DNA of 60,000 nucleotides from Malacoraja senta (taxonomy: Eukaryota). Below are positions 5,470-58,319 of this stretch, one piece after another. Numbering within the stretch: the stretch's first letter is position 1; each line of letters begins with the position of its first letter. The notes beneath the pieces are model-generated. The model worked only from the letters and a program-made list of their open reading frames with translations, was not told the origin of the DNA and did no database searches. The DNA is taken from positions 5,892,001 through 5,952,000 of the forward strand of contig CM075992.1 in NCBI GenBank assembly GCA_038087875.1, given 5' to 3'. A program made the translations under genes and the position numbers.

Positions 5470-6415
5470 ATGGGAGTCTATATTGGAGGTTCCCCTCCTC
5501 CACCATAGATGAGGCTCGCACCAGGGTCTCTGCCATACCCCGCAACACTGCTCTCTCTCCCCATCCCCCCACTCACAACAAAGGCAGAGTCCCCCTAGTC
5601 CTCACCTTTCACCCCACCAGCCGTCACATACAACAAGTGATCCTCCGTCAGTTTCGCCACCTCCAACGTGACCCCACCACTCGCCACATCTTCCCATCTC
5701 CCCCTATGTCTGCCTTCCGCAAAGACCGCTCACTCCGTAACTCCCTTGTCAATTCTTCCCTTCCCTCCCATACCACCCCCTCCCCTGGTACTTTCCCTTG
5801 CAACCGCAAGAGATGCAACACTTGTCCCTTCACTTCCCCCCTCCACTCCATTCCAGGACCCAAGCAGTCGTTCCAGGTGCGACAGAGGTTCACCTGCATC
5901 TCCTCCAACCTCATCTATTGCATTCGCTGCTCTAGATGCCAGCTGATCTACATCGGTGAGACCAAGCGGAGGCTTGGCGATCGTTTCGCCGAACACCTCC
6001 GGTCGGTCCGCAATAACCAACCTGAACTCCCGGTGGCTCAGCACTTCAACTCCCCCTCCCATTCCGTATCTGACCTCTCTGTCCTGGGTCTCCTCCATGG
6101 CCACAGCGAGCAACACCGTAAATTGGAGGAAATGCACCTCATATTCCGCTTGGGCAGTCTACATCCTGGTGGCCTGAACGTTGAATTCTCCCAATTCTGC
6201 TAGCCCTGGCTGTCCCCTCCCCTTCATCAGCCATCTGGTTGTCTCCTCCCCTCCCCCAGCCCTCGGGCTCCTCCTCCTCCTTTTCCTTTTTTCCTTTCTT
6301 CTCCCCACCCCCTATCAGTCTGAAGAAGGGTTTCGGCCCGAAACGTTACCTATTTCCTTCGCTCCATAGATGCTGCTGCACCCGCTGAGTTTCTCCAGCA
6401 TTTTTGTGTACCTTG
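5470..6415 (+). mobile_element. Penelope-like element 3' part (GIY-YIG endonuclease plus pLTR)
   Basis: ORF 5466..6203 has [30 protein letters not shown] and ends GGLNVEF; followed by pLTR with ctgaagaagggtttcggcccgaaacgtt at 6320-6347. Confidence 0.92.
6320..6347 (+). ncRNA. Minimal type-I hammerhead ribozyme core (putative) in Penelope pLTR
   Basis: CUGAAGA-(A)-GGGU UUCG GCCC-GAAA-CG-UU: both conserved core boxes, UUCG-capped stem II, palindromic stem III. Stem I is very short. Confidence 0.6.
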
Positions 6416-6419
6416 GAGA

Positions 6420-6625
6420 TAGACACAATGTGCTGGAGTAACTCAGCGGGCCAGGCAGCATCTCTGGCCCTAGACACAAAGTGCTGGAGTAACTCAGTGG
6501 GTCAGGCAGCATCTCTGGCCCTAGACACAAAGTGCTGGAGTAACTCAATGGGTCAGGCAGCATCTCTGGCGATAGACATAAATTGCTGGATTAACTCAGC
6601 GGGTCAGGCAGCATTTTTGGAGATA
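6420..6625. repeat. 51-bp tandem array (about 4 units) derived from the pLTR
   Basis: Unit tagacacaaagtgctggagtaactcagcgggtcaggcagcatctctggccc starting near 6420, 6471, 6522 and 6573. Confidence 0.85.
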
Positions 6626-9581
6626 GGAACGGGACAGGCAGCACCTCTTGAGAGAAGGAATGGAGGATGTTTTGGGCCGAGACCCTTCTTCAGACTGAGA
6701 GTCAGGGTAGGGGCATTAGATACATGGATGAGTACGGTGTGAAAACGACAGATCAAAGCAGACAATGGTTACGGAAATGTAGAATGGTTTAATTTTACAT
6801 CAGGGGAAGGTGACAAAGCATACAATCTGCAAAATTAATCAGGACAGTTAAACCAGTCAGAGAATTAGGGGAGGGGGGGGGGGGAACAGACAGAGGGAAA
6901 TCAATAGTTGCTTGAAGTTAAGAGAAATCAATATTCATCCCACTGGGTTGTAAGCTGCCTAAGCATTATTATAACCGATATTACCTGATTGGGAGCGTTT
7001 AACTTTGTTGAGTGCGATGGTGCGGCTACTGGACATTTATTTATTTCATTGAGTAGGTTTATTTATTGTCAAGTGAAAAGCTTTTGTTGCGTGCTAATTT
7101 GGAAAGACAATTCCAATCGAGCCATTCAGTGTAGATCCATGATAAAGGGAATAACGTTTAGTGCGAGATAAAGCCAGTAAAGTCCGATCAAAGATAGTCA
7201 AATGTTTCCAATGAGGTAGATAGTAGTTCAGGACCGCTCTTTAGTTCTACAGCCTATGCTCCAACTTTCCCTTTTGTAATGCTAAATTTAAAATCATAAG
7301 TGAACCCATTTCTTCGGATTGGATCTCATTATGTTGGACGGGAATTTAAATTCCTGCGTAAATCATTTAAAAGCTTATTTCCCCCCCTGAATTTCCAGGA
7401 TCTGCAGTTTTATTTGGCTTCTAAATTTGGAATATAGAATATTGGAATACAGCTTAAGGGAGAGTTGGACTTTCATGTCATAAATTGTGGATACATTTCC
7501 CTAGGTTATAGTATCTATTCTAAAAAGTGTGTAACATCTGCAGGATATCCAACACTCTTGGCACACTCCACACATTAAGCAGGTCCTGGCAATTAGTCTG
7601 CCATTTGTGGGCGGCAGTAATGCAGCAGTAGAACTGCTGCCTGACAGCACCAGAGACCTGGATTTGATTCAGACCTTGGGTACTGTGTAGTTTGCATATT
7701 CTCTTTGATCACGTGGGTTTTCTTCGGGTGCTCTGGTTTTCTCCAACGTTCCCATGTGAGTAGGTGATTGGTATGGGCCTAAGGGCCCGTTTCCACTATC
7801 TGCAATTATCCAATTCATTCCAATTTAGGCAGGTTGATTTATACAAAGTGTAATGCATTAATTACCATACGATAAGCCTCAAAGCTGGTTCCTTACAAAT
7901 CTCTTGGGTCTCGACCAAAAACGTCACCCGGTCCTTCTCTCCAGAGATGGTGTCTGTCCCGCTGAGTTACTCCAGCTTTTTGTGTCTATCCCCAAAAAGA
8001 CATGCTCCTTTTGGTTATAAATGAGTGTTCACAATTTAGTCCACTGTTGATGAATGCGTTCTAATGCAAATTTGTCCAAAATATCCAGAGAAACTTGACA
8101 GCCGAGTCAGTCAGCCCCCTTCTTCAGACATGAAGCATCACCTGTCCATTCTCTCCATAGATGCTGCATGAGCTCTAGCAATTTGTATGTTTGGGTAAAG
8201 ATTTCAGCATCTGCAGTCTCTTGTGTCTCCATTTCAGTATTTGGAGGGACATCATTGAGACCATAGTTGGAATATGGTGCACAATACTAGTCTTTATCTA
8301 GCAAAGAATGTTAATACATTGGATGCAGTTCAGAGAAAGTTTTCTGGAGTACACCCTGAATGAGTGGATTGTCTAATGAGCAAAGTTGGACAGCACTGGA
8401 ATTTGGAAGAGAGGCAACTAGCTTAACACATAAGATGCTAAGTGGGCTTCTTAGAGTGAATGTGGAAAGAACATTCTCTCAGTGGGAGAATTCAATACAA
8501 ACAGTTACTGTTTAATGACTTGCCCATTTGTGGAGAGGAAACATTTTGTTCTTTGTCTGATGGAGTCTTTGGCACTCACTTCCTCAAACTGCACTCAAAC
8601 CACTCTTTGAAACGATTCAAGGCAGAGGTAACTGGATATTTGATACACAAAAGGGTGAAAGGCTATTGTGGGTGGAGAGGAACATGAAGTAAGGTGACAA
8701 TCAAGTCAGCCACAATCTTATTAAAGAATGAAGCAGTTTGAGGGGGCAATTGGATAACTCCTGCTGATAATTTGATTGCTTATATCTTCAGTTGCTGAGC
8801 AAGTCACAGGTCAGATTTGCCTTTAAACAATTGTGTTTGTTAAAGCCAGACTGTTGGGATATTCAGTAGCCAGACAACATTGCGAAGGGAGTAGATGTTG
8901 TTTCAGACAGATTGACTTCCATTTCTAACAGATGCTTTCCAATTAGGTGAACTGTACAGTAAATGAAACTAGATACTGCGTGATCAGTTTTGCAGATATG
9001 GTGCATCTATACGAGGCGTGGTCTCAAGTAGGTGACATCTGTCAGCAAGGATCCCTATCATCCACTCTTCCCGCTACCATCTGGCAGATAAACCTGATGT
9101 CGCACAACACCGGGTTCAGGAACACCTGCTTTCCTTCAACTATCTGGTTCTTGAACAAACCCACACAATCCTACTCCTACCTTGACAAAGGAACACTACA
9201 GACTACATCATGCACCACCACAGACTTGCTCTTTTTGTTTACCTTATTGTGATTTGCAATAATGTATTGTTCTTTTGCAATCTTTTTTCTGCCTCTCAGA
9301 ATTTTGTGAAATTTCTGTATGATTGCTGTACAATTTATGTTTTTGTACTGATCAAATAAGAGATATGGACCAAATAGTGCTTTTGGATTACTGACCAAAA
9401 ACTATCCCACATGAACTGCCCAACTGTAACAATATACTTCCAATTTCGTACCACACTCTCATCATCATCTTGTTCTCCAAAACAAGACAATAATTAAAAA
9501 AATTAGATTGTCATGGTTGACAGTGCCAACGTGGTCTGCAACCTAACAAATTAACACATTAGTCCAATTATAGAAAGAATG

Positions 9582-57024: not shown

Positions 57025-57295
57025 TGAAGAATAAGGGGTAAGCCATTTAGAACGGAGACGAGGAAACACTTTTTCCTCACAGAGAGTTGTGAGTCTGTGG
57101 AATTCTTTGCCTCGGAGGGCAGTGGAGGCCGGTTCTCTGGATACTTTCAAGAGAGAGCTAGATAGGGCTCTTAAAGATAGCGGAGTCGGGATATGGGGAG
57201 AAGGCAGGATTGGGGATGATCAGCCATGATCACATTGAATGGCGGTGCTGGCTCGAAGGGCCGAATGGCCAACTCCTGCACCTATTGTCTATTGT
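57025..57295 (+). mobile_element. CR1 3' end fragment
   Basis: Matches the reverse complement of 28203-28400; ctattgt tail. Confidence 0.85.
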
Positions 57296-58098
57296 CAGTC
57301 ACCTTTAGTTCAAGATTCTCCCACAGTATATCCTTTCCACATACAGTCTTTCAAGCAGAACTCAATCACAGGCCTTCTGCAAAACATACACCTTGTCTAT
57401 ACAACCTTTCCTCATAAGGCCACACCTATTACAAATATCATTCCATATACTAAATTTTGAGTAAGTGTGAAATGGACAATTTCTCCCAAAATTGCAATGT
57501 GATATCTTTAGGCTCGAAGACCCTTGGGGACAGAATTACAAAGAGTAGATTGGTGAAGACCAGCATGGGTGGCTTTATTATCACTGTGAACAGATACATG
57601 CCATTTTGTCTAAATGGTGGAGGAATGGGAGGAGAAGCTGATCTGAAGGTCAATGAGAAAACAACCAGCAGTTTAATAACGTTAAGAAAGTTACACTACC
57701 GAGAAGTGGCTCAAGGTTCATAACAGTTAATCTTGCATGAAGGAGAGTTTGGAGAAGGCGTTGGCTTTTTCTCTGGGTCATATCTACAATGTTTTATGGT
57801 GAAGTGATTTGAGTACCATTCCAAGCGCAGAGTCTGGGCGAAATTACGTAAAGTTGGACATTCTTAAGTCATGTCTTCTGTAACCTGGGAATAAGATTTC
57901 CCTGCACTTCATTACCAACCTTTTCCCCTTTTTACTTAACCAGTCTATATCCCTTTGTAGCCTACAATGTCCTCTGCTCAACTTACTTTCTACCTATGTT
58001 TATCATCAGCATATTTGACATCAGTACCTATGGTGCTTTCATGTAAGTCATTTGTGTAATTTATTTTATAAAATTTCCCATGGCACCTCTCTAGTGAT

Positions 58099-58319
58099 GG
58101 TACACAAAAATGCTGGAGAAACTCAGCGGGTGCAGCAGCATCTATGGAGCGAAGGAAATAGGTAACGTTTCGGGCCGAAACCCTTCTTCAGACTGAAGAA
58201 GGGTTTCGGCCCGAAACGTTACCTATTTCCTTCGCTCCATAGATGCTGCTGCACCCGCTGAGTTTCTCCAGCATTTTTGTGTACCTTCGATTTTCCAGCA
58301 TCTGCAGTTCCTTCTTTAA
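58099..58319. mobile_element. Perfect palindromic Penelope pLTR element with two opposed hammerhead cores
   Basis: 93-bp arms 58099-58191 and 58193-58285 with a 1-nt spacer, 34-bp tail, 15-bp TSD cacctctctagtgat (58084-58098, 58320-58334). Confidence 0.92.

What the first reader, a model, noticed from the sequence alone, without database searches (positions are those of the whole stretch)
6320..58319. Dense family of tiny hammerhead-bearing Penelope pLTR elements mobilised with 14-15 bp TSDs
Seen: more than 20 copies of a 95-220 bp module in 60 kb. Intact cores CUGAAGA-A-stemII-GAAAC-GU(U/C) at 6320, 38867 and 58193 (+) and 34730-34757, 43767-43794, 58164-58191 (-). Two subfamilies differ in ways that keep stem II paired: GGGU-UUCG-GCCC versus GGGU-CUCG-ACCC. 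The same module ends the GIY-YIG ORF copies, and four insertions have 14-15 bp TSDs. Known: Penelope-like elements carry minimal type-I hammerheads with palindromic stem III that are thought to cleave as dimers. Inference: this is a ribozyme-containing non-autonomous retroelement system driven by the local Penelope family. Caveats: an extra A before stem II and only about 2 bp of obvious stem I.
Basis: partly seen in the sequence, partly recalled or inferred. Interest (0 to 1): 0.75.

Follow-up and report, generated by a model that had tools for sequence, protein, structure and literature searches.

The report
Skate Penelope retrotransposon hammerhead end-repeats
These ~100-base repeats are the end-repeats of a Penelope-like jumping gene of a cartilaginous fish (likely a skate), carrying an already described minimal hammerhead ribozyme motif; the tiny copies are likely short dead-end insertions made by the element's own enzyme, and cutting by the ribozyme is untested.

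Summary
In detail: six intact cores at the stated coordinates (0.05 expected by chance), 48 module hits covering 6% of the window, and four exact 14-15 bp target-site duplications. Refinements: only 6 of 29 copies spanning the motif keep an intact core; the ~220 bp forms are head-to-head doubles; one duplicated insertion is a 900 bp GIY-YIG fragment; the subfamily difference is a one-sided U-G/U-A change, with no compensatory pair. The motif fits the published minimal hammerhead consensus of Penelope-like elements; the 'caveats' (extra A, 2 bp stem I) are published features. The module is the pLTR of a Neptune-type element, with the known 33 nt tail. It is not a tandem retrozyme. Copies cross the cut site uncut, and RNA reads show no pile-up of ends there. 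Less expected: in four public runs many copies begin 2-3 bases before the core at an initiator-like TCAGT, and 8 of 8 scorable inverted doubles carry the tail on one arm only. Likely mechanism: priming at two internal sites of the 5' pLTR and run-off at the transcript start. New member of a known kind; useful as a natural record of Penelope integration.

The parts
5489..6412 (+). 5'-truncated Penelope-like copy: thumb/linker/GIY-YIG coding remnant (stop 6201-6203), 113 nt pyrimidine-rich 3' UTR, pLTR module ending at the short end; 6 bp duplication TTGGAG (not above chance)
   Evidence: read loose ends show the ORF continuing upstream of 5488 in other copies
6317..6412 (+). pLTR module, young subfamily A, +1 to +96 (A of TCAGT taken as +1)
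6320..6347 (+). minimal hammerhead motif C3-H17; predicted cut 6347|6348; stem I 6318-6319 with 6348-6349
   Evidence: cut site inferred from hammerhead numbering
6420..6614 (-). 51 nt x 3.8 tandem of the post-ribozyme part of a subfamily B module (no ribozyme in the unit), preceded by a module head at 6628-6713
20102..20317 (.). 216 bp head-to-head double (subfamily B): minus arm short, plus arm with tail; 15 bp duplication 20087-20101 / 20318-20332; cores decayed
34667..34761 (-). 95 bp solo module (A), intact core 34730-34757, starts at +2 after two extra bases; 14 bp duplication 34653-34666 / 34762-34775 inside the RT frame of another LINE (..VRLLFID | [12 protein letters not shown])
34327..38798 (+). 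longer Penelope-like copy in pieces (RT start 34327-34449, RT/thumb 35856-37222, GIY-YIG 38439-38798), split by two unrelated LINE insertions
38864..38995 (+). pLTR module with tail at the 3' end of that copy; intact core 38867-38894 with U-A closing pair
41602..41992 (+). 51 nt x 3.1 (41602-41760) and 33 nt x 4 (41861-41992) tandems of the post-ribozyme part, with a minus-strand B module at 41760-41854 between them
41996..42205 (.). head-to-head double (A) inserted into a B module; 13 bp duplication with 2 mismatches (at the edge of the null)
43702..44601 (-). 900 bp insertion: short-end pLTR (core 43767-43794), UTR, GIY-YIG remnant, and an inverted 5' pLTR with 33 nt tail (44478-44601, +); 15 bp duplication 43687-43701 / 44602-44616
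58099..58319 (.). 221 bp head-to-head double (A): minus arm +1 to +96 (core 58164-58191), plus arm +4 to tail end (core 58193-58220); 15 bp duplication 58084-58098 / 58320-58334
46236..46328 (+). solo B module starting at +1 on A-rich flank, CpG-decayed core, no duplication found
50528..50616 (-). solo B module starting at +1 on A-rich flank, stem II deleted
15548..15914 (.). old inverted pLTR (15548-15636, -) joined to a 5'-truncated RT fragment (15667-15914, +)
1..45240 (.). remaining older or partial module copies (1-72, 266-436, 3793-4019, 4443-4567, 4761-4853, 7906-7990, 8127-8220, 10651-10866, 23433-23625, 39072-39801, 41162-41252, 45095-45240)

Best explanation
The module is the terminal repeat (pLTR) of a Neptune-type Penelope-like retrotransposon of a cartilaginous fish, likely a skate, it carries a minimal type-I hammerhead motif of the published kind, and the tiny copies are likely short dead-end cDNA insertions made by the element's own RT/GIY-YIG protein. 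Shown by sequence: motif, link to the GIY-YIG frame, two fixed 3' ends 33 nt apart, 14-15 bp duplications, head-to-head doubles with one tailed arm, and a mode of 5' ends 2-3 bases before the core. Inferred: the protein nicks both target strands 14-15 bp apart and primes inside the RNA at +96 or about +130, as shown in vitro for the anole element. When it primes in the 3' pLTR of a read-through RNA it copies UTR and coding sequence (the 900-924 bp copies). When it primes in the 5' pLTR it runs off at the RNA start, which I place at the initiator-like TCAGT, and leaves a 95-130 bp solo. When both nicked strands are primed, one at each site, the two cDNAs join head to head. The template is uncut RNA. 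The ribozyme would cleave after +31 only weakly, as a dimer and with protein help, and is probably not needed for insertion.
For: Motif matches the published consensus NNN CUGANGAH G..C GAAAN palindrome NUH, with precedents for a 2 bp stem I (Culex, D. virilis, Oikopleura) and a 4 bp stem II with tetraloop (Acropora Neptune). Module ends 3 of 3 GIY-YIG copies; linker CNRKRCNTC fits CX2-5CxxC of Neptune/Nematis; nearest named proteins are skate gene models, 73-88% identical over 47-68% of the query. 4 of 4 young single or minus arms with clear borders (6412, 34667, 43702, 58099) stop at the same base, and both tailed arms with exact duplications stop at ..TTAA; tail, inverted 5' copy and tail at one end only are published PLE traits, and the tail equals the distance between two RT start sites. 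8 of 8 scorable doubles have one tailed arm, 2 old pairs not scorable (by eye). In runs X15, X17, X21, X24 module depth is about 7, 13, 15 and 29 times the median of the coding part, and loose ends with mixed A/T-rich flanks (agreement 0.32-0.39) at 6318 are among the six listed for 4 of 4 runs, at 6317 for 2 of 4. 21 of 30 window arms align from -2 to +8. Non-CpG core positions 242 of 256 match the majority base against 1089 of 1292 downstream.
Against: No two-sided covariation: 0 of 8 pairs, and percent paired is not above shuffles (478 of 500 as high). The active fold is not favoured: stem I+II about -4 against -9 kcal/mol for the 50 nt monomer, active dimer -6.5 against -29.8. Rfam gives no hammerhead hit among 15 matches at E<=1. 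The transcript start is inferred from copy ends and a motif, not mapped; no place where many RNA molecules begin or end was listed. About as many loose ends (6314-6315) continue into a C-rich UTR of another subfamily, so +1/+2 is a mode and not the rule; only the top 24 of 3173 loose-end rows were shown, and some of the 21 window arms may stop aligning because old UTRs differ. The module/ORF depth ratio is inflated if older subfamilies map by module but not by ORF. 19 of 23 units have no exact duplication above the null. No direct 5' pLTR or full-length copy lies in the window, so what follows the tail is unseen. The conservation count uses non-independent copies and alignment ends favour matches.
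Confidence: 0.78

Rival explanations
1. The solos are a self-propagating non-autonomous family (SINE-like or monomeric retrozyme): each carries an internal promoter and both priming sites, is transcribed, and is copied again in trans.
For: Large excess of module over coding part; defined 5' mode; Penelope has an internal promoter; pLTRs were reported sufficient to move cargo in trans in a rotifer; a 2026 preprint derives animal retrozymes from pLTRs and finds them in 1 chondrichthyan.
Against: The solo arm 58099-58196 is 100% identical over 98 nt to the ORF-linked pLTR at 6315-6412, so no separate lineage is visible; short-end copies lack the tail and everything downstream, which the anole protein needs; no head-to-tail ribozyme tandems; doubles fold back on the motif (alignments).
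Confidence: 0.13
2. The solos are plain random 5' truncations of cDNA primed in the 3' pLTR, with a pause or template switch at the TCAGTCTGA palindrome or at the start of the pyrimidine tract giving the apparent 5' mode.
For: Heavy 5' truncation is the published norm; many ends scatter from +3 to +32 and many extend into the UTR; TCAG-T-CTGA is a short palindrome and is the centre of the 58099-58319 double.
Against: Depth steps up more than 25-fold between adjacent 33 nt bins in both RNA runs and 4-19-fold in the DNA runs at 6308-6340, although poor mapping in the variable UTR contributes; the mixed-flank loose ends peak at two adjacent bases. This rival shares the main verdict (dead-end PLE insertions) and differs only in which pLTR was primed.
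Confidence: 0.3
3. The motif is a non-catalytic relic, kept as promoter or protein-binding sequence of the pLTR.
For: No covariation, unfavourable fold, no RNA ends at the cut site, uncut templates; AAACGT sits at +25 to +30, near where a downstream promoter element containing ACGT was noted in Penelope; published minimal motifs cleave poorly.
Against: All catalytic positions and the PLE-specific extras are kept, and subfamily changes fall on tolerated places (loop 2, H17, 11.4, 1.1); the equivalent anole motif cleaves with protein and responds to core mutants.
Confidence: 0.2

Closest known systems
[quoted passage not shown]
   Same: CUGANGAH core with the extra base, G10.1-C11.1, palindromic AC|GU with no loop 3, NUH site, short stem I, mostly solo copies genome-wide, link to Neptune elements.
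   Different: No chondrichthyan row in the part of Fig. S3 read; this version is at the small end (2 bp stem I and 4 bp stem II together); local density is very high (6% of the window).
EN+ Penelope-like elements, Neptune/Nematis type (Craig et al. 2021, PMC8557442; Arkhipova et al. 2013, PMC3846280)
   Same: RT then CX2-5CxxC linker then GIY-YIG, pLTR, inverted 5' pLTR, 30-40 nt tail at one end, 5' truncation, insertion into own repeats.
   Different: Duplications are 14-15 bp against 8-10 bp in the rotifer examples read; pLTR-only head-to-head doubles with exact duplications dominate; no partial tandem seen in this window.
PAc Poseidon element of the green anole (Frangieh et al. 2024, PMC11167929)
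   Same: Two 3' ends that define a tail, hammerhead upstream of them, uncut RNA as template, no RNA-seq ends at the cut site, A/T-rich targets in 3 of 4 duplications.
   Different: Other clade; cut site to first end is 65 nt here against about 85-92 nt (computed from the paper's +26 and +111-118); activity untested here.
Animal non-LTR retrozymes (PMC7229834; bioRxiv 10.64898/2026.07.22.740005)
   Same: Short, non-coding, type-I hammerhead, pLTR-related, long duplications.
   Different: Retrozymes are head-to-tail tandems of 150-450 bp with a ribozyme in each unit, mostly canonical, and make circular RNA; here copies are solo or head-to-head and the only tandems lack the ribozyme.

Membership tests
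EN+ Penelope-like element | RT followed by C-terminal GIY-YIG in one frame | tested here: met
   RVT_1 E 3.8e-7 at 35920-36702 and GIY-YIG E 2.5e-4 (21.7 bits, just under the 22.6 cut-off) at 5418-6203; pieces collinear with ~900 aa RT+GIY-YIG proteins; all window copies are broken
EN+ Penelope-like element | pLTR at the 3' end, optional inverted 5' pLTR, 30-40 nt tail | tested here: met
   3 of 3 GIY-YIG copies end in the module; inverted tailed arm at 44478-44601; tail 33 nt
EN+ Penelope-like element | partial tandem with a direct 5' pLTR ahead of a full ORF | tested here: inconclusive
   none in the window; no genome held
Neptune clade | CX2-5CxxC linker upstream of GIY-YIG (shared with Nematis) | tested here: met
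   CNRKRCNTC and CNRKRCYTC; definition
Neptune clade | RT phylogeny with named reference elements | not testable with these tools
   no named Neptune or Nematis references were available; the clade name rests on the linker
PLE minimal type-I hammerhead | CUGANGA + extra base, G10.1-C11.1, GAAA, palindromic 15.2-16.2, NUH | tested here: met
   6 intact copies against the consensus
PLE minimal type-I hammerhead | stem I | tested here: met
   2 bp only (GU with AC or GC); 2 bp precedents; 61% of cells paired in an alignment that includes truncated copies
PLE minimal type-I hammerhead | compensatory changes across families | tested here: inconclusive
   0 of 8 pairs in 22 distinct window rows, which are close kin decaying neutrally; needs other species
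PLE minimal type-I hammerhead | self-cleavage as dimer or with protein | not testable with these tools
   no RNA end pile-up in 2 poly(A)-type runs of related organisms, a weak test because passive copies swamp the signal
Non-LTR retrozyme | at least two head-to-tail units each with a complete hammerhead | tested here: not met
   20 tandem rows in the window; the module-derived ones (51, 33 nt) lack the ribozyme; a few back-joints to 6316-6317 in DNA contigs show that rare tandems may exist elsewhere
Non-LTR retrozyme | circular RNA | not testable with these tools
   only poly(A)/oligo-dT raw reads were laid

The most novel reading that the evidence does not exclude
The skate genome holds a vast natural record of how Penelope elements integrate: a dimeric RT primes both target strands, 14-15 bp apart, at two fixed sites of the 5' pLTR and runs off at a start site three bases before the ribozyme, so the hammerhead forms the very 5' end of the mRNA and fixed 96/130 bp products are the main output; tandem joints that restart exactly at the cut site (6408 back to the base after the cut, seen in contigs of two organisms) would be the first genomic trace of cleavage in vivo.
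Probability: 0.3. Interest if true: 0.6.

Novelty: new member of a known kind. Interest (0 to 1): 0.3.

Why it matters
Minimal hammerheads in Penelope pLTRs and their solo copies have been in print since 2014, so the system is not new. The value is as material: the copies are young, extremely numerous and have exact ends, so open questions on Penelope integration (why a tail on one end only, how inverted 5' repeats arise, whether the ribozyme ever cuts in vivo) could be tested by counting ends in one skate assembly. It also names a repeat that covers 6% of this window and whose head-to-head doubles mimic microRNA hairpins (sub-threshold Rfam matches).

Tried and rejected
Rfam scan: no hammerhead family among 15 matches; the best are microRNA models below their cut-offs on the fold-back doubles. 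Own genome not held. Core pattern in metagenome contigs: 0. Downstream pattern: 15 metagenome, 10 prokaryote and 0 viral loci; none matched the profile beyond the searched word and its edges, so all were treated as chance. No RNA holder listed by the run search, which is no evidence either way. Earlier findings of this scan: nothing in 3 look-ups. No solved structure matched a full-length relative. Splice-activated ribozyme (the tract ending CAG at 6318 looks like an acceptor, as in D. virilis): rejected for now, because loose ends at 6317-6318 have mixed flanks and no shared upstream exon, and no RNA joint was among the 15 of 281 joint rows shown. Templates cut by the ribozyme as the main source: rejected, since only 1 of 30 arms (45171) begins near the cut site. 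Compensatory stem II change: not found. Degenerate duplications at 41996 (13 bp, 2 mismatches), 4761 (12 bp, 1 mismatch) and 5489 (6 bp) are within or at the edge of the null and were not counted. One fold-back identity count was off register and is not used. The paper on dimer cleavage by Lunse et al. is not held and is known to me only through the review passage.
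Full report
What is there. A profile built from 13 window copies finds 48 hits at E<=0.01 covering 3853 of 60000 bases and none in the reversed window. Taking the A of TCAGT (6317) as +1, the module runs +1 to +96, with an optional tail to about +130. Only 6 of the 29 hits that span stem II to GAAAC keep an intact core, and 5 of those belong to the young subfamily A; most losses are CpG decay at C11.1-G12 and C15.2-G16.2. 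Exact duplications of 15, 14, 15 and 15 bp flank 4 of 23 units, against a longest match of 10 in 298 random pairings. The inserts are 216, 95, 900 and 221 bp. The 95 bp one interrupts the RT frame of another LINE, which reads VRLLFID before and [12 protein letters not shown] after it, an independent sign that the repeat is a true target duplication.

The parent element. The module follows the stop codon of all three GIY-YIG-coding copies, on the coding strand, after a 65-113 nt pyrimidine-rich UTR. Pfam finds RT at 35920-36702 and GIY-YIG just under its cut-off at 5418-6203; the pieces are collinear with ~900 aa RT+GIY-YIG proteins. The linker CNRKRCNTC fits the CX2-5CxxC motif that PMC8557442 (passages) gives for Neptune and Nematis; no tree with named references was possible. 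The closest named proteins are gene models of Leucoraja erinacea and Rhinoraja longicauda, hence a cartilaginous fish, likely a skate. No whole genome was held.

The ribozyme motif. PMC4209133 (main text parts 1-2 of 4, supplement parts 1-2 of 3) gives the consensus NNN CUGANGAH G..C GAAAN palindrome NUH, names the extra base before stem II and the palindromic 15.2-16.2 as hallmarks, lists 2 bp stem I in Culex, D. virilis and Oikopleura and a 4 bp stem II with tetraloop in an Acropora Neptune element, and reports that most motifs are solo copies in fish genomes. Support from this window alone is modest: non-CpG core positions are 242 of 256 conserved against 1089 of 1292 downstream (copies are not independent), subfamily changes fall on tolerated places, but no pair changes on both sides (0 of 8). 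The U-G/U-A difference is one-sided. Folding disfavours the active form: the purine run of the core pairs with the pyrimidine run after the cut site. That agrees with weak cleavage of minimal motifs and with the anole motif needing protein (PMC11167929, main text parts 1-2 of 4; its Fig. S2 held no readable text).

How the small copies likely arise. Four young arms with clear borders end at the same base (+96) and both tailed arms with exact duplications end at ..TTAA, 33 nt further; reads show the same tail. PMC11167929 showed in vitro that the tail is the distance between two internal RT start sites, that both target strands are cut and extended, and that uncut RNA is the template. Here 8 of 8 scorable head-to-head doubles carry the tail on one arm only (2 old pairs not scorable; by eye), and in the 900 bp copy the tailed arm is the inverted one. 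I infer priming of both nicked strands, one at each site. Laying two sets of genomic contigs and two raw RNA runs on 5450-6425 showed module depth about 7, 13, 15 and 29 times the coding median and loose ends with mixed A/T-rich flanks peaking at 6317-6318, the A and G of TCAGT. That sequence fits the initiator consensus (recalled, no call); Penelope has an internal promoter (PMC2377424, parts 2-3 of 4) and an initiator-like TCACT was noted in a rotifer pLTR (PMC3846280, passages). The simplest reading is run-off at the RNA start after priming in the 5' pLTR. Against it: a similar number of loose ends continue into another subfamily's UTR, only 24 of 3173 loose-end rows were shown, the RNA runs come from organisms other than the best DNA holder, and no place where many molecules begin or end was listed, neither at +1 nor at the cut site. 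Plain truncation with a pause at the TCAGTCTGA palindrome remains a fair rival.

Is it a separate non-autonomous system? Probably not. A solo arm is 100% identical over 98 nt to an ORF-linked pLTR, the same ends and duplications flank a coding fragment, and short copies lack what lies downstream of the priming sites, which the anole protein needed. Retrozymes are defined as head-to-tail units each with a ribozyme (PMC7229834, passages; bioRxiv 10.64898/2026.07.22.740005, parts 1-3 of 5); the only module tandems here are 51 and 33 nt units without the ribozyme. That preprint reports retrozymes in one chondrichthyan; its closed supplements may hold a relative of this family. One lead deserves follow-up: among the 12 of 238 rows shown in table 5c, contigs of both DNA runs join 6408 back to the base right after the predicted cut, as expected if cut RNA is sometimes copied; neighbouring restart points are also listed, so this is not yet evidence.

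Novelty. Ten literature searches (listings only, apart from the papers named above and passages of PMC6765202, PMC8969392 and PMC12602865) showed no description of this chondrichthyan family, but Repbase, Dfam and subscription papers were out of reach, so it may well be catalogued. It works like, and is a member of, the EN+ Penelope-like elements with minimal hammerheads; it fails the tandem test for retrozymes. Verdict: new member of a known kind, interest 0.3; up to 0.6 if the run-off and two-strand priming model, or copying of cut RNA, is shown genome-wide.

Noticed in passing
window 6420-6614, 41602-41760, 41861-41992: Tandem reiterations (51 nt x 3.8, 51 nt x 3.1, 33 nt x 4) of the post-ribozyme segment; the 51 nt units end at the short priming site, as if RT restarted repeatedly. 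Similar back-joints appear in contigs of two organisms. DNA-level duplication is not excluded.
   Followed up: partly
window 6408 to 6349 (table 5c, runs X15 and X17): Back-joint whose restart is the base right after the predicted ribozyme cut; a possible trace of cleaved RNA being copied.
   Followed up: no
window 41599-42254, 6314-6713, 39072-39801, 3793-4019: Modules cluster and young copies sit inside or at the edge of older ones, suggesting preferred insertion into the element's own repeats.
   Followed up: partly
window 34327-38997: Nested layers: the long Penelope-like copy is split by an RT-coding LINE (about 34450-35865), itself holding the 95 bp solo, and by another LINE piece (about 37222-38430) related to the copies at 1591-3652 and 24815-26236.
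   Followed up: partly
window 58243-58320 and 44528-44601: In subfamily A an ATG at +54 opens a frame that stays open through the tail (26 codons, [10 protein letters not shown]...); it could be the start of the element's ORF, as pLTRs of other PLEs hold the first codons.
   Followed up: no
window 21691-22341 (-) and 53933-54547 (+): Two paralogous G/Y/D/R-rich host exons on opposite strands, 69% identical, plus an acidic exon at 9837-10400 (-); AKAP8/AKAP8L/ZNF326-like by recall only, no call names them.
   Followed up: partly
window 5516-5812 (run X21): Reads on the coding part show a 2-4-fold strand skew in one RNA run, while the module shows almost none; unexplained.
   Followed up: no
window 3910-4019: An older module variant reads GAAACGTTAACT after a different stem II, so a longer stem I may have existed in an ancestral subfamily; its 5' strand is not preserved here.
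   Followed up: no
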